From: a virus
Reading direction: 5' to 3' (one strand)
Virus genome (UHGV): UHGV-0128973
DNA length: 64,000 nt
Part shown: positions 3,445-50,344 of the stretch, piece by piece
How positions within the stretch are numbered: position 1 is the first letter of the stretch
How the letters are laid out: each line of letters begins with the position of its first letter
Made by a program: the position numbers and the translations under genes
Notes under the pieces: model-generated
The model's database searches: none
Seen by the model: only the letters and a program-made list of their open reading frames with translations
Told to the model about the DNA's origin: nothing

Positions 3445-3515
3445 TGTTTTTTATGTCGTGTTTTCGGTACCATTCAGCCATCGCCCTTCAATGGGTATTT
3501 GTTTGGAGTCGTCAG

Positions 3516-3800
3516 ATGCAGATGGAGCTAATAAGCCGCAAAGAGTTCGATAGCCGTGTAACCAGCGGTGAACTCGACAACTTGCAGGCTATCAAGGTGA
3601 AAGAAGGCTTTTGCCTCATTGGGAATCAGAGCGGAACAAATCGCGTTTTTATGCTTCGCCGTACGGATTTGAAGCCATTTGTCTGGAAGAACGAAATTGG
3701 TCCCAGCTCATACGCTCAAACTAGGGGGTGCCTCAACCTGGCCTTTTTCTACAAAAACGAGCTTTCTGTGGTTGATATTCAAGGGTTACAACATGTTTAA
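3516..3800 (+). CDS. Hypothetical small protein
   Basis: ORF 3444..3800, probable internal start ([11 protein letters not shown]); upstream of the rdgC homologue. Confidence 0.3.
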
Positions 3801-6959: not shown

Positions 6960-6967
6960 TAAATTTA
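6951..6967 (+). promoter_or_regulatory. C1 operator (perfect ATTGCTCTAATAAATTT) overlapping the dmt stop codon
   Basis: Exact 17-bp consensus read in sequence. Confidence 0.65.
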
Positions 6968-7143
6968 TTAGTGTAATATCGCCTCAATGAATCGTGATTT
7001 ATAGAGCGATTTAGCTGTTAGCCGCGACAGGCGCGGCGGCAAGTATGGCGGGGTAGTGACTCCTTCCCCCTCATGACGCCGAGTTGCCAGGTTGACCATA
7101 CGCCTAAGTGGCAACACCGAAGTGCGTTACGAGCTTCCAGTTT

Positions 7144-7169
7144 GCCCATCTTCGGGTGGGCGTTTTTTT
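7144..7169 (+). terminator. Rho-independent terminator downstream of dmt
   Basis: GCCCA-loop-TGGGC hairpin followed by GTTTTTTT. Confidence 0.6.
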
Positions 7170-7634
7170 CAGGGTTTTCGTCATGGTTAGCGACTTTGCG
7201 GCGGTTTAGAAACTGACCATTAAAGTAAATGCAAACGATGATCTGATGATGGTAGCGGCCTAAGAAGCCAGACGCCACGGGGTATGAGTCGTCCCCCGTC
7301 AAAAAATCGACCGCAGAGTGTCCCCGTCTGTGTATTAGGGAACGGGGAGGCACAACAGGTAAGGGCGCTGGTGTGATTAACCAGATGAACGAGAAGGGGC
7401 CATCTGTTGGTCAGCGTCCTTTCCTGTTGCGTCTTCTTTTCAGCGTAACAGCGGTGCTTAACAGCACTTTGGGTACAGTTCCACGAATTTACGGGTATAT
7501 CCCGTCATGCTGAAAGCGCTAATCACGCTGGAAGCCAGGGTTATGCATCCCCTGTTACCGAATTGCAGCCAGGGCGCGGTGCGCCGAAAAGCATACGGAG
7601 GTGGAAGCCCTCGCCGGAGACGTACCCGGCAAGT

Positions 7635-7709
7635 GATGGTGTAGCTCAGCGGTAGAGCAGTTGGCTGTTAACCAACTGGTCGGTGGTTCGAATCCACCCA
7701 CCATCGCCA
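7635..7709 (+). tRNA. tRNA-Asn (anticodon GUU)
   Basis: Cloverleaf folded by eye: acceptor GATGGTG/CACCATC, anticodon loop CTGTTAA, T-arm GGTGG-TTCGAAT-CCACC, encoded CCA. Confidence 0.85.
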
Positions 7710-7714
7710 ATTTA

Positions 7715-7801
7715 GGGGAGTTAGTCCGTAGGGGTAGCGGGGTAGACTGTAAATCTACTGTCATTGCGACTCGGGTGGTTCGACTCCATCACTCCCCACC
7801 A
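7715..7801 (+). tRNA. tRNA-Tyr-like (anticodon GUA, long variable arm); possibly degenerate
   Basis: Acceptor GGGGAGT/ACTCCCC, anticodon arm GTAGA-CTGTAAA-TCTAC and variable arm resemble E. coli tRNA-Tyr; D-arm irregular. Confidence 0.45.
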
Positions 7802-7805
7802 AATT

Positions 7806-7881
7806 GCCGGTTTAGCTCAGTTGGTAGAGCAGTCGCTTTGTAAGCGAATGGTCAGCGGTTCGATCCCGTTAACCGGCACCA
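7806..7881 (+). tRNA. tRNA-Thr (anticodon UGU)
   Basis: Acceptor GCCGGTT/AACCGGC, anticodon loop TTTGTAA, T-loop TTCGATC, encoded CCA. Confidence 0.8.
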
Positions 7882-8476
7882 ACACAACAGGTAAGAGCAT
7901 TTGTAGAGTTCGACTCTCTACCGTGGGCTTTTTCCCGCGATGCGAGCCATAAATGCTCTTACCGTTGTGATGAAGTGCAGCTCTTAGAAGCAACCAGAAG
8001 ATAAGCATCTGGCTTCACAACATAAACCGCAGGAACGACCAATAAACGGTAGTCCGTATGGAGAACACCCCGTTGAGGAAGAGGCCTGGCCGGAACCGTA
8101 ACCGGCACTACAACGTTGAGAACACTGGCGTAACGGGGTCATATCCCAATCTACGAATAAATGTTGCGTTGCAGCGTGACAACCAGTGTTCTCAACATTG
8201 TGGTGAATGCACAGGCTGATGTGCCGCAACTACAGTAGTGCGCGCTTTGCGGGGCTTGCTACAACCCTGTGTCGGAGTTCAGCACCGACCATCACAGTTT
8301 GATTCTCTGGCATGAGCATAACGCTGAAATAAGTCCAGCCTGGTGCGGCCCGATCACCCGCCGTTAGCTCCACGAAACGGAGCACGTAACAGGTAAGAGC
8401 ATTCTCCTGTAACGGGTTCATATCCCAATCTACAGGTCCACCAGGAATGCTCTTTCCGTTGCGGTGAATGCGGCTA
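7882..8476 (+). repeat. Three imperfect copies of a ~95-105 nt hairpin element (7882-7975, 8105-8215, 8385-8476) carrying tRNA-like fragments
   Basis: Shared AACAGGTAAGAGCAT starts, cores AACGGGKTCATATCCCAATCTAC, ends GTGRTGAATGC; long inverted repeats; T-arm-like GTAGAG-TTCGACT-CTCTAC in copy 1. Confidence 0.55.
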
Positions 8477-8613
8477 AGCGCACGCGGGGAAATGGTTATA
8501 TCAGTCCATTCATTTCTCCTTGTTTCCCCGTCCACGGTGGATAACCAGCCAAAGGACACCGGGAGGCACCCGGCACCGCAACCTTATTTCCCAACCAGTA
8601 ATGAGGTTAATAA

Positions 8614-9039
8614 ATGCTCGGCATTCTCAAAAAGAAATTCCGCAAAGCGGCTGGCGGAGTCAAGAAGATGGAAAACCGTGATGCGGTGGAAGCGACTGTC
8701 TGGGGCGCATATTCCATTGCATACTCTGACGGCACCTGCGATGCGAAAGAAATTGCAGTATTGGAAAAAACCATTGCAGCACTTCCTGCCTTTGCGCCGT
8801 TCTCCGGTGAAATTGCCCAGATGAGCGCCAATATTCGCGCTCAATATGAAGCCTCGCCGCGCCGAGCGAATGCCCAGGCTTTACGTGAACTGGCTGACGT
8901 GTCTGGAACTAATGATGCGGTAGATGTTCTGTGCCTATGCATTGATATTGCTGACCAGGATGGCATTGGGGCAGAAGAGCAGGAGCAATTGAAGAAAATT
9001 GCCCAGGCTCTTCAATTGCCACTGGAACAGTATATCTGA
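8614..9039 (+). CDS. TerB-like (tellurite-resistance domain) protein
   Basis: 141-aa ORF with TerB-type helical signature; true start may be internal (MENRDAVEA). Confidence 0.5.
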   Translation: MLGILKKKFRKAAGGVKKMENRDAVEATVWGAYSIAYSDGTCDAKEIAVLEKTIAALPAFAPFSGEIAQMSANIRAQYEASPRRANAQALRELADVSGTNDAVDVLCLCIDIADQDGIGAEEQEQLKKIAQALQLPLEQYI

Positions 9040-9202
9040 TGGTTATAAAAGCACGTCTAATTCTGGCTTTGGTTTTTCTCGTGCTATCTGTGCTGGTGGA
9101 TTTCACCAGCACAATCCTGTCGGTTTTATCCGACGGGGCGTTGGTAGCAGTAGCTGTAACATTGGTATGGCCGATATTAAAAACAGCTTCTAAGGAACAG
9201 TG

Positions 9203-9310
9203 ATGGGCTTCTGGGATTTTGCTGACAAGCATCCAATTGTTCTCGTTGTCATTGCTGGCATAGTTGTAGGCGGTATTGCTGGCGTCATAGAAGCACTCAG
9301 GAAACAGTAA
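9203..9310 (+). CDS. Small hydrophobic peptide (35 aa, single TM)
   Basis: ATG preceded by RBS AAGGAA; MGFWDFADKHPIVLVVIAGIVVGGIAGVIEALRKQ; below ORF-track length cutoff. Confidence 0.35.
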   Translation: MGFWDFADKHPIVLVVIAGIVVGGIAGVIEALRKQ

Positions 9311-9313
9311 TCC

Positions 9314-9389
9314 GGCCCTTTAGCTCAGTGGTTAGAGCTGGCGACTCATAATCGCACGGTCACCAGTTCAAGTCCGGTAGGGGCCACCA
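9314..9389 (+). tRNA. tRNA-Ile (anticodon CAU, lysidine-type) / tRNA-Met-like
   Basis: Near-identical in arrangement to E. coli tRNA-Ile2 as remembered: GGCCCTTTAGCTCAGTGGTTAGAGC..CTCATAA..TTCAAGT..AGGGGCCACCA. Confidence 0.8.
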
Positions 9390-9675
9390 TATTTGGTTGT
9401 AACACGGCGTCTGGCACATGCGTCGTTAGCGGTCTGGTGACGTTAAAAGGGGGGAACCTTGCCCCTAGCTCAGGCAACGAACCAGGTAGCCGGAATGTGC
9501 AAGCCACCGTTTGTTGTTTCTCGGGTAAAGGGATTCACCATCCTGGCGATTCGGTGTGACAGCCGGGAAGAGTCCGGCGCATTAATCCTGATTTTCTGGT
9601 GATGACTCATATCGTTAGGAGTGATTTGAGTATGCCGATTATATCTGACATTCAGCACGCCTGGGTGGAGTGCTA

Positions 9676-38412: not shown

Positions 38413-39444
38413 ATGTCCAATTTACTGACCGTACACCAAAATTTGCCTGCATTACCGGTCGATGCAACGAGTGATGAGGTTCGCAAGAACCTGATGGACA
38501 TGTTCAGGGATCGCCAGGCGTTTTCTGAGCATACCTGGAAAATGCTTCTGTCCGTTTGCCGATCGTGGGCGGCATGGTGCAAGTTGAATAACCGGAAATG
38601 GTTTCCCGCAGAACCTGAAGATGTTCGCGATTATCTTCTATATCTTCAGGCGCGCGGTCTGGCAGTGAAAACTATCCAGCAACATTTGGGCCAGCTAAAT
38701 ATGCTTCATCGTCGGTCCGGGCTGCCACGACCAAGTGACAGCAATGCTGTTTCACTGGTCATGCGACGGATCCGAAAAGAAAACGTTGATGCCGGTGAGC
38801 GTGCAAAACAGGCGCTGGCGTTCGAACGCACTGATTTCGACCAGGTTCGTTCACTCATGGAAAATAGCGATCGCTGCCAGGATATACGTAATCTGGCATT
38901 TCTGGGGATTGCTTATAACACCCTGTTACGTATAGCCGAAATTTCTAGGATCAGAGTTAAAGATATCTCACGTACTGACGGTGGGAGAATGTTAATCCAT
39001 ATTGGCAGAACGAAAACGCTGGTTAGCACCGCTGGTGTAGAGAAGGCACTTAGTCTGGGGGTAACTAAACTGGTTGAGCGATGGACTTCTGTCTCTGGTG
39101 TGGCTGATGATCCGAATAACTACTTGTTTTGCCGTGTCAGAAAAAATGGTGTTGCCGCGCCATCTGCCACCAGCCAGCTATCAACTCGCGCCCTGGAAGG
39201 GATTTTTGAAGCAACTCACCGATTGATTTACGGGGCTAAGGATGACTCTGGCCAGAGGTACCTGGCCTGGTCTGGACACAGTGCCCGTGTCGGAGCCGCG
39301 CGAGATATGGCCCGCGCCGGAGTTTCAATACCGGAGATCATGCAAGCTGGTGGCTGGACCAACGTAAATATTGTCATGAACTACATTCGTAACCTGGATA
39401 GTGAAACGGGGGCAATGGTGCGCCTGCTGGAAGATGGCGATTAG
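38413..39444 (+). CDS. cre: Cre tyrosine site-specific recombinase
   Basis: 343 aa, essentially the canonical Cre sequence (MSNLLTVHQNLPALPVD...), one visible difference near residue 264. Confidence 0.98.
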   Translation: MSNLLTVHQNLPALPVDATSDEVRKNLMDMFRDRQAFSEHTWKMLLSVCRSWAAWCKLNNRKWFPAEPEDVRDYLLYLQARGLAVKTIQQHLGQLNMLHRRSGLPRPSDSNAVSLVMRRIRKENVDAGERAKQALAFERTDFDQVRSLMENSDRCQDIRNLAFLGIAYNTLLRIAEISRIRVKDISRTDGGRMLIHIGRTKTLVSTAGVEKALSLGVTKLVERWTSVSGVADDPNNYLFCRVRKNGVAAPSATSQLSTRALEGIFEATHRLIYGAKDDSGQRYLAWSGHSARVGAARDMARAGVSIPEIMQAGGWTNVNIVMNYIRNLDSETGAMVRLLEDGD

Positions 39445-39461
39445 CCGTTCATTTGCGCCAG

Positions 39462-39478
39462 ATTGCTCTAATTATTTG
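39462..39478 (+). promoter_or_regulatory. C1 operator-like site (ATTGCTCTAATTATTTG)
   Basis: Operator core match in intergenic region downstream of cre. Confidence 0.6.
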
Positions 39479-39494
39479 ATATTTATGGTGACAC

Positions 39495-39806
39495 ATGCGG
39501 AAGGATTTCAAAATAGACGGAAAATATGTGGTGCTGTCTGTAAGCTCTCAAATTCAGTCACCATCTGTCATTGTCACCGTAAAGTTGAGCGATAGGATGC
39601 CTGATATCGACTCGATATCTGTTGCGTTCCCCGTTAAAAGCATGCGGAGTGCTGAACATTTTGTGATGAATGCAACGGAGGAGGAAGCGCGGCGCGGGCT
39701 TACTAGAGTGATGGCGGAATTTGGCGAACTCCTGGGTAAGGTAAACAATGCCCTTTCAATCAGTTCAGCAAGATCCAAAGCGTTAACAGCTTCCATGATG
39801 AAATAA
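39495..39806 (+). CDS. c8: Hypothetical protein (103 aa), c8-like position
   Basis: ORF between cre and ref as in P1; symbol from position only. Confidence 0.45.
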   Translation: MRKDFKIDGKYVVLSVSSQIQSPSVIVTVKLSDRMPDIDSISVAFPVKSMRSAEHFVMNATEEEARRGLTRVMAEFGELLGKVNNALSISSARSKALTASMMK

Positions 39807-39936
39807 AAAAGCCTGGCAAGGAGCCAGGCTGCACAAAAGAGCGGGTTTGTATTCCGCATCCAATCAATCAAGAAGGAGTATAGCACACAGGTACTGAAGT
39901 GAAAAAATGTGATTCGCGATAAATAAAATATCTACC

Positions 39937-39953
39937 ATTGCTCTAATTGATTG
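39937..39953 (+). promoter_or_regulatory. C1 operator-like site (ATTGCTCTAATTGATTG) upstream of ref
   Basis: Operator core match; P1 ref is C1-controlled. Confidence 0.6.
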
Positions 39954-40020
39954 CTATAATTGAGCCGCAGTTTTTGTCAACTACGAAGACGTTGCCATTA
40001 CTTCACTCCTTGACATCATT

Positions 40021-40046
40021 GGCGGCCATTAGGCCGCCTTTTTTTT
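40021..40046 (+). terminator. Rho-independent terminator-like hairpin
   Basis: GGCGGCC-ATT-AGGCCGCC followed by TTTTTTTT, 5 bp before ref ATG. Confidence 0.6.
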
Positions 40047-40051
40047 GCCAT

Positions 40052-40612
40052 ATGAAAACAATCGAACAAAAACTTGAACAGCGCCGCGAGTGGCAGAAGG
40101 CAGCCAGAGAACGAGCGATCGCTCGGCAACGGGAAAAGTTGGCTGACCCCGCCTGGCGAGAATCGCAATATCAGAAAATGCGGGATTCTATCGACCGCCG
40201 TATCGCTAAACAGAAAGAGCGCCCACCAGCCAGCAAAACGCGGAAAAGTGCGGTAAAAATAAAATCTCGTGGCTTGAAGGGACGAACACCGACGGCGGAG
40301 GAACGGCGCATAGCCAATGCTCTTGGCGCTCTCCCCTGCATTGCCTGCTATATGCATGGAGTAATATCTGAAGAGGTGTCTCTGCACCATATCTCCGGTC
40401 GTACCGCGCCGGGTTGTCACAAAAAGCAGTTGCCACTTTGTAGATGGCACCACCAGCATGCAGCACCGGCTGAAGTAAGAGAAAAATACCCCTGGCTGGT
40501 CCCTGTTCATGCCGATGGTGTGGTTGGAGGCAAGAAAGAATTCACCTTGCTGAACAAGTCAGAGATGGAGTTGCTGGCTGACGCCTATGAGATGGCAAAC
40601 ATCATGCACTAA
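40052..40612 (+). CDS. ref: Ref (recombination enhancement function) HNH endonuclease
   Basis: 186 aa from MKTIEQKLEQ; Cys/His-rich HNH region (CIACYMHG...HH...CRWHHQH). Confidence 0.9.
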   Translation: MKTIEQKLEQRREWQKAARERAIARQREKLADPAWRESQYQKMRDSIDRRIAKQKERPPASKTRKSAVKIKSRGLKGRTPTAEERRIANALGALPCIACYMHGVISEEVSLHHISGRTAPGCHKKQLPLCRWHHQHAAPAEVREKYPWLVPVHADGVVGGKKEFTLLNKSEMELLADAYEMANIMH

Positions 40613-40800
40613 TAAATATATTATTTTTAATCTGAAATAATTGACAACTGACAAGTGACTTCAGTCAGAATCATCACATGCCCGGTACGGATGGATCCCT
40701 TTTCAAATATTCCATGGACGGCACAGTCTGAGTACCGGGCGCTACCTTAAGTTGTATTGCTAAGCCGCCGCTGGTGGCTTTTCTTTTTTGTAGGGGCGCT

Positions 40801-41442
40801 ATGGATAAGAAAATATGCGTTGTTTCGATGAGCGTCGGCAAACCGGCGTCAATGACTGCTGCATGGATCAACAACGAGCTGATAATGGCTGAGCGGACCA
40901 GCTACCCTGAACGCCGCCGCGATATGGAACTCCAGCTGCTGCGCGAATTGCGAGAAAAAGAGGAAAAGGGTTTTATCGTGCTGGTGGAAGAGGAAAACAG
41001 CTTTATTACTGGTCGAGTTGGCCAGCGTGTAAGGTTGCGCGATCCCTTCATGAACGGCAGGCCGGTACTAATTGAGGCCATGCAGATTTATAAGGAGCTG
41101 GAACGCCAGAAAGCAATCAAGTTACCGCGCAAGGAATCCGGCAAATACATCCTCCACCAAAGCATCTTCGATTCCGAACACGACAAAAAAGGCGATGAAT
41201 TTTTCAACATCAACTGGAGCGAAATAACGACAGAGCATGTTCTGACGTTACTATGTTGCTTTGCGACGGAATACAACAACGTTGCCAGCGCAGACTACAT
41301 CAGGGCAATGGCTGGAGAAGTTGAGGCACGCCAGGAACCATCGTTACTAAGCCCTCTGATTAACATAATTCGCGGAACCCAAACGCTGGCACAAAAACGG
41401 GTGCCGAAAGGGGAATTAACAGGAAAAGGAAATTATCTATAA
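40801..41442 (+). CDS. mat: Mat-like protein
   Basis: 213-aa ORF (start MDKKICVV) directly after ref as in P1. Confidence 0.6.
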   Translation: MDKKICVVSMSVGKPASMTAAWINNELIMAERTSYPERRRDMELQLLRELREKEEKGFIVLVEEENSFITGRVGQRVRLRDPFMNGRPVLIEAMQIYKELERQKAIKLPRKESGKYILHQSIFDSEHDKKGDEFFNINWSEITTEHVLTLLCCFATEYNNVASADYIRAMAGEVEARQEPSLLSPLINIIRGTQTLAQKRVPKGELTGKGNYL

Positions 41443-41498
41443 ACGTCAATGCATTAGGGTATACTTCTCCATAGAACTATAAGTAAATGGAGTAAGTA

Positions 41499-42806
41499 AT
41501 GAGCGAATATGTTGAGTTAGCATACGCTGCCGCTACAAGCAGGCTTTGTCTATTTACCGGGACTGGCTTTTCAAAGGCAGTCTCGAACGGCGAAGCTCCA
41601 ACGTGGAAAGAACTATTAAAAAAAGTTTGCAGCAAAGTTCACAACGCCAAACAGTTGGAAGACACGTTATTCCCTGATGATAAACCACCAGCATTGAGCC
41701 TTGAAGAAGCCGCACAAATACTATCTTTGAAGCTCAATATTGAGGGTAAGTCGATTTATGATGAAATTGTTGAGATCATATCTCCAATTCAACTTGGAGA
41801 AGATATATCAAATATAAAAGATTTTTTTCAAAAAAATTCATTCCGTGTCATTACAACAAATTATGACAAGTTAGCTGAATGCTTAACTGGAGATGAGGAA
41901 GTACAGTCTATTACCCCGGGCTTACCTATTCCTAAATACTCATCTAAAGTTAAAATATATCATGTCCATGGTTCTATTGATTCACCAAAAAACATGGTTG
42001 TTACTTCAGAAGACTACTTCAGGTTTATAAACTCTGACACCTATTTTTCACAAAAACTTAGTACGATACTACATGAAAATACAGTTGTGATATTAGGATA
42101 TTCTTTAAGTGATACAAACCTTAAGGCAATTATAAATAGTTATAAGACATTTTCTAAAGATAATGCACTGTGCTCTAATATATTCTTCATATCTCATGGC
42201 GAAGTAAGTCAAGACATGAAGGACTATTACTTTTATTGTTTTGGAATAAGGGTAATTGACAATACGGAAATAGATGATTTCTTTCATCGACTGAGCAGTA
42301 AGATACTGCTCATAGAAGATATAATAGAGAGAGCTCGTGAAAACATTAGAAAAGTTATTGTAGGTTCTCATACATATAAGAATGAATATATTAGATTAGA
42401 AGACTCATTTTATCAGATAATTTCTTCAATTATATCTGAAGGTTTGGATTGGAGTGACAGCAGAGTTGTTGAATTTTTTAAGAGGATAATAGAACAAAAA
42501 AGAAATTTAACAAGAGAGAGCGGCGCTTGGGAGCAATATGAACAACTTGCAAAATGGCTTATATATTTTGGAAGTATCATAGAAATTGCTGGCACTAAAT
42601 ATGAAAAAGCATATTTAGAAGCAGTCGAATACTCAATGTCCAATATGAGCAAAGAAAGACGGTTAGGTTATTCGTGGCATGCTTATAGAGCTTGGGAAAC
42701 GCGATGGTCTACAATCATTGCTTCAAATCGATTAATTATAAAAAAACACATCGAGGAACTTGGCGTACTGGATGACGCCAATTCTATAGTGAAAAATATA
42801 GTGTAA
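41499..42806 (+). CDS. SIR2-family (SIR2_2-like) protein with uncharacterised helical C-terminal domain; candidate NAD+-dependent defence effector
   Basis: FTGTGFS (res 19-25), VITTNYD (117-123), YHVHGS (154-159), GYSLSD (200-205) in canonical SIR2 order; AT-rich; sits between mat and lxc. Confidence 0.7.
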   Translation: MSEYVELAYAAATSRLCLFTGTGFSKAVSNGEAPTWKELLKKVCSKVHNAKQLEDTLFPDDKPPALSLEEAAQILSLKLNIEGKSIYDEIVEIISPIQLGEDISNIKDFFQKNSFRVITTNYDKLAECLTGDEEVQSITPGLPIPKYSSKVKIYHVHGSIDSPKNMVVTSEDYFRFINSDTYFSQKLSTILHENTVVILGYSLSDTNLKAIINSYKTFSKDNALCSNIFFISHGEVSQDMKDYYFYCFGIRVIDNTEIDDFFHRLSSKILLIEDIIERARENIRKVIVGSHTYKNEYIRLEDSFYQIISSIISEGLDWSDSRVVEFFKRIIEQKRNLTRESGAWEQYEQLAKWLIYFGSIIEIAGTKYEKAYLEAVEYSMSNMSKERRLGYSWHAYRAWETRWSTIIASNRLIIKKHIEELGVLDDANSIVKNIV

Positions 42807-42857
42807 TTGAAACGCTGCAAACATTTAACGGGCAGCTACAACTGCCCGATATATAAA

Positions 42858-43106
42858 TCAATCCGCATTCAGGAGCAATGCATTATCTATGATGATTTGC
42901 TCCCATTCTTCGAATGCCCGGTCGCGGACGCCCTGGGGAACGCTGTTAGTTTTGAAATCGACGACCGTCCGCCATTTTCCGTCCGGACGGTACATGCGCA
43001 GAGCTTTACTTCCCCCTTCCCTGCGCACCTCAACGTTATGCTTATCAGCAAACTCTTGTAATGCTCGTAGCGTCCCATGCTTTACTGTGTAGTATCGCTT
43101 TTTCAA
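42858..43106 (-). CDS. lxc: Lxc/Bof-like protein
   Basis: 82-aa ORF at the P1 lxc position. Confidence 0.6.
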   Translation of the reverse strand: MKKRYYTVKHGTLRALQEFADKHNVEVRREGGSKALRMYRPDGKWRTVVDFKTNSVPQGVRDRAFEEWEQIIIDNALLLNAD

Positions 43107-43543
43107 GTTTTCTCTCCAGCCTGTGCTAAGGCTTCAACTTCCAAATCGTAAGACTCAAACTCATAGTCCTGGTCGTCAACCTCTTCAGGCACTGGCAGTA
43201 AATGCCAGGCTGAGTATATCTGACCATTATCAAAACGCTCCTGGCTGTAGAGCGTCGCAGCTATGAGCGTCAGCGCCGGGCGGTCATAACGGTAAATTTT
43301 GCGAACGTCACGGTCAACGAGACGACCGAAATTACCATAACCGCGCTCCAGTAATAATTTTTTAATTTCCGGCCAGTATGGACCATAGCTGCGGTACAGG
43401 CGGGGATTTTTCAGTAATCGCCCGCGTAGCCCTGACAGGAAGAAATCAACGTATTCGTCTTCTGTCTTTCCTAACAACGCCGTACGCAGTACCGCCTCAA
43501 GATATGTTTTATTCGGTTTTATTGTATCAGATAGTGTGGCCAT
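43103..43543 (-). CDS. ulx: Ulx-like protein
   Basis: 146-aa ORF between lxc and darB, overlapping lxc start. Confidence 0.6.
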   Translation of the reverse strand: MATLSDTIKPNKTYLEAVLRTALLGKTEDEYVDFFLSGLRGRLLKNPRLYRSYGPYWPEIKKLLLERGYGNFGRLVDRDVRKIYRYDRPALTLIAATLYSQERFDNGQIYSAWHLLPVPEEVDDQDYEFESYDLEVEALAQAGEKT

Positions 43544-43576
43544 ATTATGCGACGCCCGGCGAACCGGGCGCTCCTG

Positions 43577-46500
43577 TTATGCGTATTGTTGGATGACGGC
43601 CAGAACGTCCGCCACGTTGTGTTTTGTCTCGATAATCCACCAGTTACCCGGGAAATCGCTGTTCTTCGCCTTCGCTGGCAGCCAGCGAGCGCCGAATTTC
43701 GCCTTGATTGCGTCTTTCGCACGGAAAAGAACGCCTTTCATGCCTGAGGCTTCCTGAAGCCCAAATACCTCGCCAGCGGCGAATTTTGGTGCGTACATCA
43801 TCTTCAGGTCGGCGGTGGATACGCGATAATTCAGACCAAGAGACTGAGCTATGCTGGTGGCATCACCCTGTATTGATGATAACTCTTCTTGTTTCTCGTT
43901 TCTGGCGGCAATCTCTTCCTCCGTGATGTTGCCAAGGGCCAGGTTTATCCGATCAGCGTCGGCCTGTTTCTCTTCATCGGTGCGCCCGGCAAGAACCGTG
44001 TTAATTCTCTGCAATATCTCCACATGATTCTTGCGCATGCTGAGCAATTCCGGCGTAACCTCGTTAAGATCCACCAGCCCAAGGATGGCAAGGTCGGAAA
44101 ACATTGATACCAGGTTGTAGGTCATGCGATAGCTGAGTTGACCATAGGCTGATGGCAACTTCACCGCATCCATTTGATAGGCATCCATAAATTTAGAGCC
44201 GTCGTTTACGACATCCGCTATTGCAGGTGTGATTTTCCCTGTGGTGGCGGCCTCCCTGATTGCTGTTACCCACGATTGAGTCAGCGCGGCGACTGCATGA
44301 TTCAGATTGGCTTCCCGTTCTGCTGCGATGCGCGCGCTTGCTGCGTCCATTGCCTGCTTGATCTCGGCTTTATTGCTGTAAATGCCAATGGTGCCAAACT
44401 GTGCTGTGGTGATCTCATAATCTGACGCCCGGAACTCATGGGTACCGAAAATAGCATTGGTGACCTCAAGTTCAGAATCCCCGTTACGAGTAGCCCCCAG
44501 GCTTGTTTTCTCCGGCATTTTGGCGATCGAATCCGCTATTTTCTCCTGAAGTGCTTCAGGGGATAGCGTATCTCCGTATGACGCGATTACATCGCCATAA
44601 TTGGAGCCAAACAGTTCAGTCAGGAATACTTCTGCCAAACGGACCTGGCGGTTATTCCCTTCAGACATCATACCATGCACCCATTTTGCAATTGACGACT
44701 TCAGCGCGCCGTCACGGCGATCCGGGTAAACCGCATGCTTCAGTGGGTCCGTATAGGTACCAACAAAATCAATGCTATACCCTGACTCTGTAGTCTGAAC
44801 GCCGTATGAGTCAGTGATTTTGATCATGCCGCGCTGCTGGAAACGGTAGAAATCGTCACAGGAAATGATGTCGTTAATCCCGGCGATGGAGACGCCACCA
44901 CTGATTTTCTGCATAACAGCATCTTCATCGGGAGTTACATCAACCTGTTTATCCAGCGTCTTCACATCCCAGTTACCCGATTTGGTACCTTTGAAGGTAA
45001 AGATAATCTCCACGTCTGCGCGCTGGCTGTCGAAGTCCAGCGACTTAATGCGAACGATATCACCGGCACAATCGTAGTATTGGCCTACACGCCATGAGCG
45101 ATCGCCGATAACAAGGAACTCACTCGCATGGTTAACCAGGTCAGGATCAACATCCAGAATGCCTTTATTTATTGCATCCTCCACCAGCGGGCGCAGGCGT
45201 TTGATATCCGTCGCGGCCTTCTGGGTACGGTTCAATAATTTCTCATAGCGGGAGATGGCTTGAGAGATATTAGCCTTCTGTTGAATAGCATTTTTTAACG
45301 AAGCGCGATATCGAGCTAACAACATACGGTCAGCGTTATGGACACTCCCCCAACGTGCCTTCCAGTCTGCGTTATCAGCTGCTTTGGCCATTGCTGCTTG
45401 TTTGAATTTGTCGACGTCGGCGGTGATCTTTTCAAGTTCCGCTTTGCTTCGCTCCAATTCAGCGGTAAGAGCTTCTACATCTTCACCAGATGCGTGCTGC
45501 GCCTTGATGTAGTTCTGAAGGTCGATAGTAGCCTGTTCTTTCTGGCGAGCGCGTTGCGCGGCTTTCGCCTTATCCATTTGAACCTGCATCATTGCCAGAC
45601 GTTCGCCATCATCCTTAGCGGTATACATCTGCATTTCGATCATATCGTTGGCGTCGGCGTTCTCCATTTCTGACTTATCTGAACGGAGGATATCGGAGAT
45701 CCAGCCTGCTTTACGCTTCAGCGTCTTCAGTCGGTATTCATCGAAAGAACCCTTGCCGCAGTAGTAGTGAACGCGAACGCTTGCACGGTTGGAACCAACT
45801 CGGGCACCGCGACCGTTACGCTGTGCGATACTGGCTGGTGTCCATGGCAACGTCAGATGATGGATGTCAGTCGTTCCTCGATGCAGGTTGATACCCACCT
45901 CTGCCTTTTTGTTGCAGATGATGATCGGAGTCCGGCCCTCCTGGAAGTCGGCAGCAATCTTTTCCAGCCCGCCCAGCGACATTTCATTTTGCTGCGCGAT
46001 ATAGGCGTCATACAGAGCCATTTGCTCGTTGTATTTCGCTATCTGTGCATCTGTTGGTTCATCCGGTAGCTCTTTCGGCGGTTTAACCGCTTTCAGTTTC
46101 TTACCGGTTTTACCTGCCTCGGCAACCGTCTGAGCATTCAGGATCCCCACCTTTGAAGGTTCAAGGTTAAGAGCATTGCAGATAATGCGCTTGAGCTTCT
46201 GGTGCTGCGTTTTTTCATCGGTGAAGATGATTTGCTTACCTTCCGGGAAAAACTCCTTCAGCGTGGCGATCAGCTTCGCGTATTTTGGTGTAACGGGGTG
46301 AGTTACGGTCTGTTCGTCAATGCCAAACCTGGCCAGGCGCTTATTCACTTCCTGCTCGAACGCTTCCGGAACCTGCAACTGAATAAACTCGCCCTTATCT
46401 ATCAGGGAGTATTGCGATTGCTGCGTGATTGAATCATCACTGTCGTCGTCTTCGCTGGTGGCTTGTTTAGGCAAACTGTCCGCCAGCTGCTGCACCGCAT

Positions 46501-49500
46501 CGGCGTACTCCGGCAGGAAACGATAGGTGATCCGGCGATAGTACAGGTCCATGTCAGTACATACGCGGTCCATATCCCTGATTATTGAGAAGATCGGACG
46601 GGCTTTCTCGTGCTCAATCACGCCGTCTTCATTGACCGAGGTCGTTACGCCATTGTTGGCTTTGGCTGCCGCTTCCGCCTGCTGACGCAATTCTTCATAC
46701 GCCGCCAGTTGTTCTTCAGTAAGTGGCGCATCCTGCTGGTGTTCGTCCAGCTCCGGGATCTCCACGGTATCCTTAACGTCTTCCGCTGTTTTAAGCGTTG
46801 TCCAGCGATGGAATATGCCGCGCAGCGCATCAAGGTTTTCAAAGCCCACCAGCGCCATTTTTTCTTCAACTTCACCGCTGATTTTCTGTACCGTTTCCAG
46901 CCTGGTCTTGCCGAAGAATTTAACGAAGTCATCAGGACCGTAGATCCCCATCTTCTGCCAGTATTCCTTCGGCAGAACATGAGAAAGCATGTTGTATGCA
47001 TCGATCGGGGTGTTAACGACTGGCGTTGCAGTCAGGAGAACCGGTCCGCGCCCGCCATTCTTTTTCATCAGGTACGCGTTTTTGATTGCCATATCCCGCG
47101 CCGATTGCGCCACCGCGCTGGTGGGCAGATAGGCCAGTTGTGACGCTTCGCGACCATTTTTATAGCTATTGCGGTAGTTGTGGCCTTCGTCGGCGATCAC
47201 GCTGTCGAAGCCCATATCCTCAAAGTACGGATACTTCTCTGCTTTTTCGGTACCGGTATCTGAATACTCCGACAATACCCGGCGACGCGCCGCCTCTTTG
47301 CGATGGGAATCGGAGTCCATTGCGCTGGCCACACGCCCGGCAGCAACGAAGTCATAAAGCATGTCTTGTGCATGCTCATCTACGGTGTCATCACGTAGCG
47401 GAATGCGGGCGTATTGTTCTTTGGTAAACACGACTGCACGGTAGTTTGAGTGCGGGATCGCGTTCATCCGCGCCGTGATAGTGGCTTCATCTGCCAGCTT
47501 AAGAGCATCGCGCATAACTGGAGTGCCATCAGCACCAAGAACAGGTTTACCGTTCTCATCGAGCACCGGCACCTGGCGAATCTGATCGCCATCCATCAGC
47601 ACATCAAGACCGACGAACAGGTAGTTACTGAATGCCTCTTCACTCAGGAATTCTTTTGCTTCGTAATACCAGTTTTCCAGCACTGATTTAGGCACTACAT
47701 ACGCAGTACGGGTGGAGCGACCGTTCTCATAGTTGAACGCCTCAAGTGCCAGCGCGGTCGTGGTTTTACCCAGCCCGGTGCCGAAGCCCAGGATGCCGCG
47801 CCCATCTTCGGACAGTCGGCGCACCTCGCTATTCTGGTAATCAAATGGCTGACGCTTACCGCTTAATCCCTTCAACCCAAGCGGATCACCAGAGTGTTCA
47901 TACGGAATATTGCTATTGAAAACATCGTTGTATTTGGCAACCAGCTCATCGTAGCGATCGTGCGTCTTGATCCACTTATTGAACTGGTCCTCAAGCAGTG
48001 CCATCTGCTCGCGGTAGCCGTTCGCCGTCGCGCTATCTTTGCCACCGATACGCGCACCATTGAGATACTTTTCCAGCTGTGCCGGGAACCCGGTCGCGTT
48101 TTCACCTGATTTACGGTCCCACTCGTAGCGGATCTCGCCTGTTTCTTTATCCTTGCGCTGGACGACACCGTATCGGTGCCCGACGAACAGGCCATCACCA
48201 CCGTGATAGGTGTCAGAAACCATTTCGTCGCCTTCCAGCTGCACTGACTGCACATAGCGCAGATCCGGATAGCCGTTTTCCTGCAAAAACTCCAGAATGA
48301 CGGAACGGTCGAACCAACGGCTATTGAGCTTAAAGCGGATATTCTCTGCTGGCGTCTTGATGCGCTTCTCTTCGATCGCTGCCAGCTGATTAAGGACGTT
48401 GTTCTTTACTGGACCGTCGGGGAGCGTGGCGAGGAATTCCTGTTTTGGAGCCACTATCTCGTTAATGTCGCCGCTGGTGGCGCGGGCGAACGGAACAATC
48501 CCGCCATACGGTGAAACCGCAATACCAGGGGTGCTGGCCAATAAATTAAGCAACTCTTCATCACTGGCTGGCAGTTCGCCGGTAAACGCAAGGCGGAAAT
48601 CATCGAGCTGGATTGGATCGCGGGTAAGATCGCTATAGAGATAACGCAGGGTGTCCTGATAGCTGGTGGAGTCATAACTGGCGCTGGAATCATGCGTAAC
48701 CAGCTTTCCTGCCAGCTCGTCAGAAATAGTGCCATCCAGCTTAATTGCACCACGGAAAGCAAACCAGGAGCGCGCACCGCTTCCCGATAATTTAGCTATC
48801 GGACCGCGACCGGGGTTACCAAAACGGTCAATCTCTGCCTGCAAACGGGACACCAGAGAAAGGCGCTGTTGTTCGATTTGTTCAGCACTATGCCCGGCGG
48901 CCTTCATGTCCTGATATTCAATTAACATCCGGCCAATCATCGCCCCGCGATACAAGCGTTCACGGTATTTTTCAGGCTGGCTGTTAATCCAGTCCACCAG
49001 CTGCACCATATCGTCGCTGATTGATGTGGTGTACTTATCGCGGACATTTGCCATCTGGGTAAATGTCATGCCGAGACGGCCTTCTGTTGTAGTCAGGTTA
49101 CGCTGAAGAGCCTCCCAGCTATCCGCGCCATAACTGGCAGCATCGATCTTAAGTTCCTTCCCGGCATCAGCTTCAATCCAGCGACCACCAGCATATTTTT
49201 GCCATACGCCATTAATCAGGCGCATTTCCCCTTCACCAACAACGTCTGCGGTCGGTGACGGTTCAGCCATATCGAGCAAAGACCAGTCGATACGGCTTTC
49301 GAAACGATGAATCAGCTTCGCTTTAAGAGCCTGGTTATCAATCTGACCGTCGGCACGAACCTCAATACGCCCCTGGAAGCCCTTTTCCTGGGTGCCATGA
49401 ACAAACCGGCGGCCATCCTTTTCAAACCACTTGCCAGAAATAAACGTTGGCCAAAGCACATTTGCCGATTCAAGAGTGCTTTCATCCACCAGGGGGATTT

Positions 49501-50344
49501 TCTCAGCCATCTCTGCCGGATGTTTGCGCATCAGCACCACATCTACGACCGTACTGGTCCCGTTTGCGTCAAAAGTACCGGTAGGCAGGCGGTGGGCACC
49601 AAGAAATTCAGCTTTCCGTGATAGGCGCAGGCGTAACCGCTTCATGTTTGAACCTGAAACAATGGACGGCGGCACAATCACGCACATGAATCCGCCTGGC
49701 TTTATTTTGTCCAGCATGCGGAGCATGAAGTAAGAACCCATGTCCGTTTCTTCTGCGTAAGGCTTATCGATGTTGCGTGTGTTATCACGACCGCCGAACG
49801 GAACGTTACCCACAACATGGTCGAATGAATCGTTAGGCGTGCTTACAGCCAGCTGTTCGAACGGGGAAATCTGTACGCTGTCTTCCGGGTGTAACAACTG
49901 GTTTATACGACCGGAAACACTGCTGATCTCAGTCGCGGTCATCACCGTACCAACCGGTTTTGTCTCATTAAAAACGCCGGTTCCCGCCGATGGTTCCAGA
50001 GTGTTACCTACGTCCGCGCCGTAGAGCTTCATGATCTCCCAGACACCTTCAGCGATCGGCTTTGGTGTGTAATATTCGGAGACGGACCCGCCAATGCCGC
50101 CTTCACCGGTGTACCCAGCCAGGATCTGGCGCTGTTCATCTGTCAGTGTCGCGCCGTCCACCAGCGAATTAAGCAAATCTATCGCCTTCTGATTCGCCTC
50201 CCGGCGCAGTCGGTCATAGCTTTTGCCTTCCACCTTTTCCACGCCATATTTAATCGGCGCTCGGTGAGATATTATTGCCCTAATGTATTTCAATATTTCG
50301 CTGACACTTGAACAGCGAAACACCCCCATAGATAGCTTGTTCAT
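43577..50344 (-). CDS. darB: DarB antirestriction protein (giant methyltransferase/helicase)
   Basis: 2255-aa ORF; N-terminal N6-MTase-like region (NVPFGG), central SF2 helicase motifs (GTGLGKT, DEGH). Confidence 0.9.
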   Translation of the reverse strand: MNKLSMGVFRCSSVSEILKYIRAIISHRAPIKYGVEKVEGKSYDRLRREANQKAIDLLNSLVDGATLTDEQRQILAGYTGEGGIGGSVSEYYTPKPIAEGVWEIMKLYGADVGNTLEPSAGTGVFNETKPVGTVMTATEISSVSGRINQLLHPEDSVQISPFEQLAVSTPNDSFDHVVGNVPFGGRDNTRNIDKPYAEETDMGSYFMLRMLDKIKPGGFMCVIVPPSIVSGSNMKRLRLRLSRKAEFLGAHRLPTGTFDANGTSTVVDVVLMRKHPAEMAEKIPLVDESTLESANVLWPTFISGKWFEKDGRRFVHGTQEKGFQGRIEVRADGQIDNQALKAKLIHRFESRIDWSLLDMAEPSPTADVVGEGEMRLINGVWQKYAGGRWIEADAGKELKIDAASYGADSWEALQRNLTTTEGRLGMTFTQMANVRDKYTTSISDDMVQLVDWINSQPEKYRERLYRGAMIGRMLIEYQDMKAAGHSAEQIEQQRLSLVSRLQAEIDRFGNPGRGPIAKLSGSGARSWFAFRGAIKLDGTISDELAGKLVTHDSSASYDSTSYQDTLRYLYSDLTRDPIQLDDFRLAFTGELPASDEELLNLLASTPGIAVSPYGGIVPFARATSGDINEIVAPKQEFLATLPDGPVKNNVLNQLAAIEEKRIKTPAENIRFKLNSRWFDRSVILEFLQENGYPDLRYVQSVQLEGDEMVSDTYHGGDGLFVGHRYGVVQRKDKETGEIRYEWDRKSGENATGFPAQLEKYLNGARIGGKDSATANGYREQMALLEDQFNKWIKTHDRYDELVAKYNDVFNSNIPYEHSGDPLGLKGLSGKRQPFDYQNSEVRRLSEDGRGILGFGTGLGKTTTALALEAFNYENGRSTRTAYVVPKSVLENWYYEAKEFLSEEAFSNYLFVGLDVLMDGDQIRQVPVLDENGKPVLGADGTPVMRDALKLADEATITARMNAIPHSNYRAVVFTKEQYARIPLRDDTVDEHAQDMLYDFVAAGRVASAMDSDSHRKEAARRRVLSEYSDTGTEKAEKYPYFEDMGFDSVIADEGHNYRNSYKNGREASQLAYLPTSAVAQSARDMAIKNAYLMKKNGGRGPVLLTATPVVNTPIDAYNMLSHVLPKEYWQKMGIYGPDDFVKFFGKTRLETVQKISGEVEEKMALVGFENLDALRGIFHRWTTLKTAEDVKDTVEIPELDEHQQDAPLTEEQLAAYEELRQQAEAAAKANNGVTTSVNEDGVIEHEKARPIFSIIRDMDRVCTDMDLYYRRITYRFLPEYADAVQQLADSLPKQATSEDDDSDDSITQQSQYSLIDKGEFIQLQVPEAFEQEVNKRLARFGIDEQTVTHPVTPKYAKLIATLKEFFPEGKQIIFTDEKTQHQKLKRIICNALNLEPSKVGILNAQTVAEAGKTGKKLKAVKPPKELPDEPTDAQIAKYNEQMALYDAYIAQQNEMSLGGLEKIAADFQEGRTPIIICNKKAEVGINLHRGTTDIHHLTLPWTPASIAQRNGRGARVGSNRASVRVHYYCGKGSFDEYRLKTLKRKAGWISDILRSDKSEMENADANDMIEMQMYTAKDDGERLAMMQVQMDKAKAAQRARQKEQATIDLQNYIKAQHASGEDVEALTAELERSKAELEKITADVDKFKQAAMAKAADNADWKARWGSVHNADRMLLARYRASLKNAIQQKANISQAISRYEKLLNRTQKAATDIKRLRPLVEDAINKGILDVDPDLVNHASEFLVIGDRSWRVGQYYDCAGDIVRIKSLDFDSQRADVEIIFTFKGTKSGNWDVKTLDKQVDVTPDEDAVMQKISGGVSIAGINDIISCDDFYRFQQRGMIKITDSYGVQTTESGYSIDFVGTYTDPLKHAVYPDRRDGALKSSIAKWVHGMMSEGNNRQVRLAEVFLTELFGSNYGDVIASYGDTLSPEALQEKIADSIAKMPEKTSLGATRNGDSELEVTNAIFGTHEFRASDYEITTAQFGTIGIYSNKAEIKQAMDAASARIAAEREANLNHAVAALTQSWVTAIREAATTGKITPAIADVVNDGSKFMDAYQMDAVKLPSAYGQLSYRMTYNLVSMFSDLAILGLVDLNEVTPELLSMRKNHVEILQRINTVLAGRTDEEKQADADRINLALGNITEEEIAARNEKQEELSSIQGDATSIAQSLGLNYRVSTADLKMMYAPKFAAGEVFGLQEASGMKGVLFRAKDAIKAKFGARWLPAKAKNSDFPGNWWIIETKHNVADVLAVIQQYA

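What the first reader, a model, noticed from the sequence alone, without database searches (positions are those of the whole stretch)
40612..43106. Type III restriction-modification (res/mod) absent between mat and lxc
From recollection of the P1 map, a ~5-kb EcoP1I mod/res pair lies between mat and lxc. Here only 1.4 kb separates them and no ORF has methyltransferase or helicase-nuclease motifs. The locus appears to be an exchangeable cargo slot.
Basis: partly seen in the sequence, partly recalled or inferred. Interest (0 to 1): 0.45.

Follow-up and report, generated by a model that had tools for sequence, protein, structure and literature searches.

The report
P1 defence slot carrying SIR2 gene
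In this P1-like phage-plasmid the classic EcoP1I restriction genes between mat and lxc are replaced by one SIR2-family gene that probably kills infected cells by destroying NAD+; the swap site is already known as variable, but this occupant has never been tested.

Summary
Reference P1 and P7 carry res/mod between mat and lxc. Here 1,415 bp separate the two stop codons (41443-42857), and no Res or Mod relative occurs anywhere in the 64-kb window or in the closest complete plasmid.

It holds one intact 435-aa ORF (41499-42806, +; about 35% GC against about 48% in the flanks) of the SIR2_2 family, with the NAD-pocket motif and the catalytic Asn and His conserved. A helical-repeat C-terminal domain follows. 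The closest solved relative is the DSR2 anti-phage NADase.

The "exchangeable cargo slot" reading is right but already published: RD-1 (PMC6906374, PMC10865808) and "region 1" (PMC9603915). My survey of 75 loci found about 14 cargo classes, including type III RM, CapRel (SJ46), two SIR2 lineages, DUF2971, PIN and empty sites. Junctions sit exactly at the two stop codons, without att-like repeats, and flank identity decays towards the slot. This fits exchange by homologous recombination.

The SIR2 protein is most likely a single-gene NAD+-depleting abortive-infection defence. That is inferred, not shown. Interest is modest.

The parts
40801..41442 (+). mat (maturation control), the upstream conserved flank of the slot. 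The ORF opens at GTG 40774; ATG 40801 is the start that PGAP uses in the 99.9%-identical plasmid.
   Evidence: 94.5% aa identity to P1 and P7 Mat. The last 100 nt (41343-41442) are only 69-88% identical between cargo classes, against 98-99% further upstream.
41443..42857 (.). The cargo module occupying the RD-1 slot: 1,415 bp, about 35% GC, replacing the 5.1-6.3 kb res/mod of P7 and P1.
   Evidence: Similarity to other cargo classes stops at the first base after the mat stop codon and resumes at the lxc stop codon.
41443..41498 (+). 56-nt leader with a GGAG ribosome-binding site (41489-41492) 6 nt before the ATG. It is 98-100% identical in both SIR2 lineages of P1-like elements.
   Evidence: It was found in 15 loci, all in P1 slots, and not upstream of chromosomal homologues.
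41499..42806 (+). SIR2-family ORF of 435 aa (coordinates include the stop codon): candidate single-gene NAD+-depleting anti-phage protein.
   Evidence: Pfam SIR2_2 at 1e-23. PADLOC PDC-S25 at 2e-28, ThsA at 1e-17 and LmuA at 2e-16, over the SIR2 part only. dN/dS is about 0.12 between slot alleles. More than 680 homologues were found, of nearly constant length around 434 aa.
41499..42269 (+). SIR2 (Rossmann) domain, aa 1-257. It carries the invariant T20-G-T-G-F-S25 motif, N121 in TTNYD and H157 in HVHGS.
   Evidence: Invariant columns in a 56-sequence alignment. N121 and H157 align to the ITTNYD and KVHGD motifs of DSR2 (phmmer 3e-11). Foldseek best hits are DSR2 at 4e-10, then KomC and ThsA.
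42270..42803 (+). C-terminal all-helical (HEAT-like alpha-solenoid) domain, aa 258-435. Its first part (aa 258-302, window 42270-42404) is the most variable segment between alleles.
42829..42848 (.). GC-rich hairpin (CGGGCAG-CTACAA-CTGCCCG) between the convergent SIR2 and lxc stop codons. It is probably a transcription stop shared by both genes.
   Evidence: -16.3 kcal/mol, z = -3.05. Analogous hairpins end most other cargos and make up the 'empty' slot.
42858..43106 (-). lxc (modulator of C1), the downstream conserved flank of the slot.
   Evidence: 100% aa identity to P1 Lxc. Homology to P1, P7, SJ46 and empty-slot elements resumes exactly at its stop codon.
43103..50344 (-). ulx and darB (P1 anti-restriction genes): conserved context beyond lxc.
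   Evidence: They are 97-100% identical in all cargo classes.

Best explanation
The window is a P1-like phage-plasmid. The interval between the convergently transcribed genes mat and lxc is the known RD-1 variable locus. It is a hotspot where short, AT-rich, mostly single-gene modules are swapped by homologous recombination in the conserved flanks. Many of these modules are proven or candidate anti-phage systems.

In this element the EcoP1I/EcoP7 type III restriction-modification pair is replaced by one gene for a 435-aa protein. It has an N-terminal SIR2 NAD+-binding domain and a short HEAT-like helical C-terminal domain.

The most likely function is a stand-alone abortive-infection defence for the lysogen. 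The helical domain, especially the hypervariable segment aa 258-302, would sense a component of a superinfecting phage. This would release the SIR2 domain to hydrolyse NAD+, which stops phage replication, as DSR2 does on a larger scale.

Shown here: absence of res/mod; presence, integrity and conservation of the SIR2 gene; the catalytic motifs; the fold; the multiplicity of cargos; the exact junctions; and the decay of flank identity.

Inferred only: NADase activity, the anti-phage role, the sensing mode, and how the gene is transcribed in a lysogen.
For: Slot:
- P1 and P7 have res/mod exactly here.
- 75 loci fall into about 14 cargo classes: SIR2-b 12, type III RM 11, DUF2971 10, CapRel 8, GNAT 7, empty 7, PIN_12 5, SIR2-a 4, ANT+HTH+JukA 4, EAL+AraC 3, lipoprotein 2, YaaC+NDT-like 2.
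- L058 is phage SJ46, whose cargo is CapRelSJ46, an experimentally proven defence (PMC9712102; PADLOC PDC-S33 at 5e-87).
- Junctions lie at the two stop codons with no shared repeats.
- Identity to the window falls from 98-99% to 69-88% in the last 100 nt of mat, and to 92-97% in the 3' end of lxc.
- All cargos have low GC, 33-43%.

SIR2 protein:
- Pfam SIR2_2.
- Invariant GTGFS, N121 and H157, aligned to the DSR2 catalytic motifs.
- The best structural matches are the anti-phage NADases DSR2, KomC and ThsA.
- The C-terminal domain is an alpha-solenoid, the same fold class as the DSR2 sensor region.
- dN/dS is about 0.12, so the gene is functional.
- Homologues are always a lone gene with changing neighbours, often in defence or mobile contexts. 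Examples: a prophage edge beside an integrase in E. coli; next to type I RM and GmrSD in Marinobacter; between NERD-UvrD and DUF2971 in Stutzerimonas; next to an HD/dGTPase-like gene in Pantoea.
- About 125 PLSDB plasmids carry a full-length copy.
Against: - There is no experimental evidence for this family. PADLOC lists its closest model only as a candidate (PDC-S25), and the match covers only the SIR2 part. A DefenseFinder survey of 846 P1 elements does not report it.
- No sigma-70-like promoter is detectable upstream. The gene lies 56 nt behind mat, which in P1 is under C1-repressed and late promoters. Expression in the prophage state is therefore unproven.
- The C-terminal domain is rather well conserved, with many invariant Trp residues. 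This is less typical of a fast-evolving protein sensor.
- The raised divergence of aa 258-302 comes with raised dS, so it reflects mosaic import rather than demonstrated positive selection.
- One of the seven chromosomal contexts looked at (Rhizobium) shows nothing defence-like, and a second (Pseudoalteromonas) shows only unannotated neighbours.
Confidence: 0.75

Rival explanations
1. The SIR2 protein is not a host-protecting defence. Instead it serves the phage-plasmid itself. It might be a late-expressed NAD-consuming or ADP-ribosylating/deacylating enzyme that remodels the host during P1 lytic growth, or a toxin-like addiction factor that stabilises the plasmid.
For: The gene is co-oriented with mat and 56 nt behind it, with no terminator between them and no recognisable promoter of its own. 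In P1, mat is driven by a C1-repressed promoter and a late promoter. Venturini et al. describe EcoP1I in the same slot as part of the plasmid addiction systems (PMC6906374).
Against: SIR2_2 proteins closest in sequence and structure are all anti-phage NADases. Chromosomal homologues sit in defence islands without any P1 context. The slot's other identified cargos are defences: type III RM and CapRel. CapRel in the same orientation is expressed from 100-200 bp of native upstream DNA. No antitoxin-like partner is present.
Confidence: 0.15
2. The SIR2 gene is one component of a multi-gene system (Thoeris-like, SIR2-HerA, SIR2-pAgo or Lamassu-like). Its partner would be encoded elsewhere on the element or in the host.
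For: PADLOC gives secondary hits to ThsA (1e-17) and to a LmuA model of nearly the same length (2e-16).
Against: Those hits cover only the SIR2 domain, aa 13-226. No SLOG, HerA, APAZ or SMC-type partner is adjacent. The slot holds this ORF alone, between mat and lxc. Neighbours of homologues differ in all seven genomic contexts examined. The C-terminal domain occurs only in this one architecture.
Confidence: 0.07
3. The locus is simply a deletion derivative of P1 that lost res/mod, and the remaining 1.4 kb is a decaying remnant.
For: Truly empty slots of 29-39 bp do exist in other elements.
Against: There is no nucleotide or protein similarity to res/mod. The ORF is intact, under purifying selection (dN/dS about 0.12), has more than 680 full-length homologues, and is present in about 125 plasmids.
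Confidence: 0.02

Closest known systems
P1 'RD-1' / variable 'region 1' (the res-mod locus between mat and lxc)
   Same: Same position, same flanks and low G+C. res-mod is replaced by unrelated ORFs in P1-like plasmids (PMC6906374; PMC10865808 Fig. 5; PMC9603915).
   Different: Those papers list 'transcriptional regulator', 'phosphokinase', relA_P1 and unknowns. None mentions a SIR2 cargo, and no paper in the searchable library combines SIR2 with P1-like or IncY. They also do not describe the exact stop-codon junctions, the empty-site hairpin or the identity decay in the flanks.
DSR2 (defence-associated sirtuin 2, Bacillus subtilis; PDB 8wkt, 8k98 and others)
   Same: It is the best sequence and fold match for the SIR2 domain. 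The TTNYD Asn and HG His are conserved. Both are single polypeptides with an N-terminal SIR2 domain followed by alpha-helical repeats. From the published DSR2 work (own knowledge), it depletes NAD+ after binding a phage tail tube protein.
   Different: DSR2 has about 1,005 aa with a very large C-terminal repeat region, whereas this protein has 435 aa with about four helical hairpins. The NCBIfam Dsr2 score is 25.8 bits against a cut-off of 1,400. Identity is only about 15-20%. The trigger is unknown.
Thoeris ThsA (SIR2-SLOG)
   Same: The SIR2 NADase domain is similar (PADLOC ThsA 1e-17; foldseek hits 8wc0, 7uxt and 8bto), and the overall length is similar.
   Different: There is no SLOG/STALD signal-binding domain; the C-terminal part is a helical solenoid instead. 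There is no neighbouring ThsB/TIR gene.
CapRelSJ46 (fused toxin-antitoxin defence of Salmonella phage SJ46)
   Same: It occupies exactly the same mat-lxc slot, on the same strand, as a single gene of about 1.2 kb with low GC (L058 = SJ46). It is a proven abortive-infection defence triggered directly by a phage structural protein (PMC9712102).
   Different: The protein is unrelated: a RelA/SpoT-type tRNA pyrophosphokinase, not a SIR2 NADase.
[quoted passage not shown] 2022, PMC9122126)
   Same: Both are fixed positions between conserved phage genes holding interchangeable, mostly small anti-phage systems.
   Different: The phage family differs, and this is an extrachromosomal phage-plasmid. The cargo set found here has not been tested systematically.
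PADLOC candidate PDC-S25
   Same: It is the best PADLOC model (2.3e-28), and it is a single-gene candidate.
   Different: The match covers only aa 99-258 of the protein and positions 126-288 of a 517-position profile, so the two may share only the SIR2 domain. The candidate is itself unvalidated, and only one paper in the library mentions it.

Membership tests
Type III restriction-modification (EcoP1I / EcoP7) | A Mod subunit (N6-adenine methyltransferase) encoded in the locus | tested here: not met
   tblastn with P7 Mod against the whole window gives a best E of 1.1. Pfam on the slot ORF finds SIR2_2 only.
Type III restriction-modification (EcoP1I / EcoP7) | A Res subunit (SF2 helicase plus nuclease) encoded in the locus | tested here: not met
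   tblastn with P7 Res gives a best E of 4.3, and blastn with P7 res-mod DNA gives no hit. None is annotated in the closest complete plasmid.
P1 RD-1 variable locus | Lies between the 3' ends of mat and lxc in a P1-type backbone | tested here: met
P1 RD-1 variable locus | Content differs between otherwise near-identical elements, and G+C is low | tested here: met
   About 14 cargo classes in 75 loci, GC 0.33-0.43 against about 0.48 in the flanks. The flanks are 97-100% identical.
SIR2_2 / defence-associated SIR2 NADases | SIR2 Rossmann fold with a glycine-rich NAD-binding loop | tested here: met
   Pfam PF13289 at 84.5 bits against a cut-off of 24.5. T20-G-T-G-F-S25 is invariant. The fold matches DSR2, KomC and ThsA.
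SIR2_2 / defence-associated SIR2 NADases | Catalytic Asn and His (DSR2 N133 and H171 by published numbering; H171 also appears in the PDB entry names 'DSR2 H171A') | tested here: met
   N121 (TTNYD) and H157 (HVHGS) are invariant in 56 sequences and align to DSR2 ITTNYD and KVHGD.
SIR2_2 / defence-associated SIR2 NADases | NAD+ hydrolysis triggered by phage infection, giving protection from phage | not testable with these tools
   This needs cloning, plaque assays and NAD+ measurements.
DSR2 proper | Full-length architecture (about 1,000 aa) reaching the NCBIfam equivalog score | tested here: not met
   NF041819 Dsr2 scores 25.8 bits against a cut-off of 1,400, and NF041818 Dsr1 scores 27.8 against 1,400. 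The protein has 435 aa.
Thoeris (ThsA/ThsB) | A SLOG/STALD ligand-binding domain in ThsA and an adjacent TIR-domain ThsB gene | tested here: not met
   ThsA hits stop at aa 226. The C-terminal domain is an alpha-solenoid. The only neighbours are mat and lxc.
SIR2-HerA / SIR2-pAgo / Lamassu-SIR2 | An adjacent HerA ATPase, pAgo, or LmuB/C partner gene | tested here: not met
   The cargo is a single ORF. Neighbours of homologues are not conserved.
PADLOC PDC-S25 candidate | A full-length match to the candidate's HMM | tested here: inconclusive
   E = 2.3e-28, but only profile positions 126-288 of 517 are matched.

The most novel reading that the evidence does not exclude
The ~434-aa SIR2 plus mini-HEAT family carried here is a previously unvalidated, self-contained anti-phage NADase, a 'mini-DSR2'. 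Its variable helix (aa 258-302) would set which phages are recognised. More broadly, the P1 mat-lxc slot would be a true defence hotspot comparable to those of P2 and P4. Its other unannotated cargos (DUF2971/PDC-S31, PIN_12, the YaaC plus NDT-like pair, GNAT) would then be a ready list of new defence genes carried between E. coli and Salmonella strains by a transducing phage-plasmid.
Probability: 0.55. Interest if true: 0.45.

Novelty: new member of a known kind. Interest (0 to 1): 0.3.

Why it matters
P1-like phage-plasmids are common in clinical and animal E. coli and Salmonella, and they move between strains as viruses. The single gene sitting between mat and lxc probably decides which other phages a lysogen can resist, which matters for phage therapy and for competition between mobile elements.

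The slot already yielded one textbook system, CapRelSJ46. The SIR2 occupant seen here is present in more than a hundred sequenced plasmids and is missed by a DefenseFinder survey. It would be a compact, easily testable example of direct-sensing NAD+ depletion. Its natural allelic series (100%, 87% and 59% identity behind an identical leader) offers a built-in experiment on specificity.

The finding itself, that res/mod is absent and the slot is variable, is not new.

Tried and rejected
1. I looked for res/mod relocated elsewhere. There is none in the window or in the closest complete plasmid.
2. I looked for att-like or other shared repeats at the cargo borders. There are none; the cargos differ from the first base after the mat stop to the lxc stop.
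3. I looked for a promoter for the SIR2 gene. The consensus scan found none on the + strand, and a relaxed scan gave at best 8 of 12 matches. This remains unresolved.
4. I looked for an Rfam RNA in the slot. There is none; the only hits in the window are four tRNAs at 7.6-9.4 kb.
5. I tested whether the C-terminal domain is a shared sensor module fused to other effectors. It is not; all significant hits have the same architecture. Pfam and NCBIfam find nothing in it.
6. I tested for positive selection on the variable helix. dN/dS stays below 0.25 and dS is also inflated, so this is mosaic recombination rather than demonstrable positive selection.
7. I searched for prior experimental work on this protein. 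No paper combines SIR2 with P1-like or IncY. The Sir2 homologue mentioned by Vassallo et al. could not be linked to this family, and PADLOC, which includes the PD-T4, PD-T7 and PD-lambda systems (own knowledge), gave no such hit.
8. I searched deposited phage genomes for the gene. Three of the 50,697 records give only weak partial matches (21-34% identity over 23-52% of the protein) in Gram-positive phages, and none is P1-like.
Full report
What the window is. Megablast of 38500-45500 against phage genomes hits P1, P7, RCS47, SJ46 and other P1-like phages at 95-98% identity. In every record the alignment breaks into two pieces around a central stretch of about 1.4 kb that none of them contains. 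The ORF list gives the P1 order: c1, cra, cre, c8, ref and mat on the + strand, then lxc, ulx and darB on the - strand. The closest complete record is E. coli IncY plasmid NZ_LR890538.1, at 99.9% identity over the slot.

Check of the observation. P1 NC_005856 has mat 2716-3468, res 3544-6456, mod (interrupted by IS5) and lxc 9750-9998. P7 has mat 7672-8424, res 8500-11412, mod 11415-13355 and lxc 13507-13755. In the window, the mat stop codon ends at 41442 and the lxc stop codon begins at 42858, so 1,415 bp lie between them. Searches with P7 Res and Mod proteins and with P7 res-mod DNA find nothing in the whole 64-kb window. The closest complete plasmid has no type III RM gene anywhere; its only methyltransferases are the native darB and dmt/dam-type genes.

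The 1.4 kb is not empty. It holds one intact ORF, 41499-42806 on the + strand, of 435 aa, preceded by a 56-nt leader with a GGAG ribosome-binding site. A GC hairpin at 42829-42848 follows it. GC content falls to 30-35% inside the insert, against about 48% in the flanks. Pfam assigns the protein to SIR2_2 (PF13289, 84.5 bits). PADLOC gives PDC-S25, ThsA, LmuA, Dsr2 and Dsr1 hits, all restricted to the SIR2 part.

The slot across relatives. Using Ulx as bait I fetched 80 IMG/VR loci. With P1, P7, the closest plasmid and the window, 75 loci have both flanks. The interval between the two stop codons ranges from 29 bp to 6.3 kb and falls into about 14 unrelated classes:
- SIR2-b: 12 loci; 434 aa, 59% identical to the window protein.
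- Type III RM: 11 loci.
- DUF2971 protein (PADLOC PDC-S31): 10 loci.
- CapRel, two variants: 6 and 2 loci (PDC-S33 at 5e-87). L058 is phage SJ46 itself.
- GNAT acetyltransferases, two variants: 4 and 3 loci.
- Empty sites: 7 loci, consisting only of a 29-39 bp GC hairpin.
- PIN_12 protein: 5 loci.
- SIR2-a: 4 loci, including the window.
- A 3.5-kb block with a KilAC antirepressor, an HTH protein and JukA: 4 loci.
- EAL plus AraC pair: 3 loci.
- Lipoprotein: 2 loci.
- YaaC-like plus nucleoside-deoxyribosyltransferase-like pair: 2 loci.
CapRelSJ46 is an experimentally established abortive-infection system triggered by a phage capsid protein (PMC9712102), and EcoP1I is the classic restriction system. 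At least two occupants of the slot are therefore proven defences.

How exchange happens. Sequences of different classes differ from the first base after the mat stop codon and become alignable again exactly at the lxc stop codon. No direct or inverted repeats are shared between classes. Identity to the window is 98-100% through ulx, darB and most of mat. It falls to 69-88% in the last 100 nt of mat and to 92-97% in the 3' end of lxc, depending on the cargo class. This gradient is what homologous recombination with breakpoints in the flanking genes should leave, and it argues against a site-specific cassette mechanism. The mechanism is inferred; no recombination event was observed directly.

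Already known. Venturini et al. 2019 named this locus RD-1 (P1 3,469-9,749, res-mod with IS5). They reported res-mod missing from three P1-like plasmids and replaced by unique ORFs, at a boundary of low G+C (PMC6906374). [quoted passage not shown] A survey of 54 P1-like phage-plasmids lists res-mod as variable region 1 of eight (PMC9603915). No paper in the searchable library combines SIR2 with P1-like or IncY elements. A DefenseFinder screen of 846 P1 contigs reports RM III, dGTPase, PrrC and CapRel, but not SIR2 (bioRxiv 10.1101/2025.09.12.675607).

The SIR2 protein. A database search returns 689 homologues. The best 120 are almost all 431-437 aa long and 53-61% identical across Escherichia, Xenorhabdus, Klebsiella, Vibrio, Pantoea, Halomonas, Pseudoalteromonas, Marinobacter, Pseudomonas, Paracidovorax and Rhizobium. 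In a 56-sequence alignment the glycine-rich loop T20-G-T-G-F-S25, N121 (TTNYD) and H157 (HVHGS) are invariant. These align with the ITTNYD and KVHGD motifs of DSR2, the best hit among solved structures (phmmer 3e-11).

Context of homologues. The gene is always alone, with changing neighbours:
- At the integrase end of a prophage beside the ccm operon in E. coli chromosomes.
- Next to type I RM and GmrSD genes in a Marinobacter island.
- Between a NERD-UvrD helicase and a DUF2971 protein in Stutzerimonas. DUF2971 is also an RD-1 cargo family.
- Next to an HD/dGTPase-like gene in Pantoea.
- Near PDDEXK and SMC-like genes in Paracidovorax.
- Nothing informative in Rhizobium or Pseudoalteromonas.
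This supports a self-contained defence gene by association only.

Alleles in the slot. About 125 PLSDB plasmids, mostly 93-105 kb E. coli IncY elements, carry a full-length copy: 5 at 95% identity or more, 53 at 80-90%, and the remainder near 60%. None of the 50,697 deposited phage genomes has it. All slot alleles share a 98-100% identical 56-nt leader, although SIR2-a and SIR2-b drop to about 65% nucleotide identity from the start codon onward. Between SIR2-a alleles, dN/dS is about 0.12, so the gene is under purifying selection. The segment aa 258-302 is the most divergent: 58% identity between alleles that are 93% identical in the SIR2 domain. Its dS is also inflated (1.4-2.2), so it looks like mosaic import from more distant alleles rather than proven positive selection.

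Proposed mechanism and its weak point. The most likely model has four steps:
1. The prophage expresses the SIR2 protein in an inactive state.
2. A component of a superinfecting phage is bound by the helical domain.
3. The SIR2 domain then hydrolyses NAD+.
4. Infection aborts.
Every step after 'the protein has an intact SIR2 active site' is inference from DSR2, ThsA and related systems. The weak point is expression. There is no terminator between mat and the gene, and no recognisable sigma-70 promoter in 41250-41500. In P1, mat is driven by a C1-repressed promoter and a late promoter. CapRelSJ46, in the same position and orientation, is nevertheless active from 100-200 bp of native upstream DNA, so cargo-proximal promoters can exist. 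If the gene proved to be late-only, a role for the phage itself would become the better explanation.

Verdict. What is there instead of EcoP1I is an uncharacterised single-gene SIR2 protein, a new member of the known class of SIR2 NADase defences, sitting in a known hotspot. Interest is modest (0.3). It would rise if the protein were shown to be a compact direct-sensing NADase, or if the slot's other unknown cargos proved to be defences.

Noticed in passing
window 40762-40801: The window has GGGG (40794-40797) where P1 and P7 have GGGGG. P1's annotated mat start (P1 2716) is therefore out of frame here, and the ORF begins at GTG 40774 or ATG 40801. A conserved hairpin plus T-run (40762-40790) lies between the Pmat/LPmat region and that ATG in all three genomes. 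This suggests either an over-extended mat annotation in P1 or an attenuator in the mat leader.
   Followed up: partly
window 41443-41498; L010, L029 and other SIR2-b loci: The 56-nt leader upstream of the SIR2 start codon is 98-100% identical between two SIR2 lineages that share only 59% protein identity. It is absent upstream of chromosomal homologues. Either it is part of the recombining flank or it is a constrained regulatory element.
   Followed up: partly
L016, L041, L048, L049, L067, L078 (39 bp) and L034 (29 bp), between lxc and mat: The 'empty' slots consist only of a GC-rich hairpin (for example AAGATGCCCGGCGATAGACCGGGCAAAAGGGCGGAAAGT). The CapRel-b and GNAT-a cargos end in the same hairpin, so some cargos appear to have been inserted upstream of, or deleted down to, this shared terminator.
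   Followed up: partly
L013 (DUF2971), L004 (PIN_12), L011 (YaaC-like plus NDT-like pair), L007 and L043 (GNAT), L047 (EAL plus AraC), L005 (KilAC antirepressor plus HTH plus JukA), L071 (lipoprotein): These are other occupants of the same slot. Several match only PADLOC candidate models (PDC-S31, PDC-S34) or no defence model at all. They form a short list of untested genes in a position that has already yielded EcoP1I and CapRelSJ46.
   Followed up: partly
L098 and L099 (Stutzerimonas), 6110-10237: A SIR2 homologue sits directly between a NERD-UvrD helicase gene and a DUF2971 gene. Two families that are alternative cargos of the P1 slot are therefore neighbours in a chromosomal island.
   Followed up: no
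collections 'phages' and 'plasmids': The SIR2 cargo is present in about 125 PLSDB plasmids but in none of the P1-like genomes deposited as phages. This may be a sampling bias, or a hint that SIR2-bearing elements are seldom recovered as infectious particles.
   Followed up: no
window 7635-9386: There are four tRNA matches (7635-7706, 7715-7798, 7806-7878, 9314-9386). As far as I recall, P1 is described with three tRNA genes. The extra, weaker hit (41.9 bits) was not examined.
   Followed up: no
L083 (IMGVR_UViG_2773857937_000002): This is a diverged relative with Ulx 88% and Lxc 63% identical and no detectable mat next to it. It may belong to a different subgroup (D6-like?) with another organisation of this region.
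   Followed up: no
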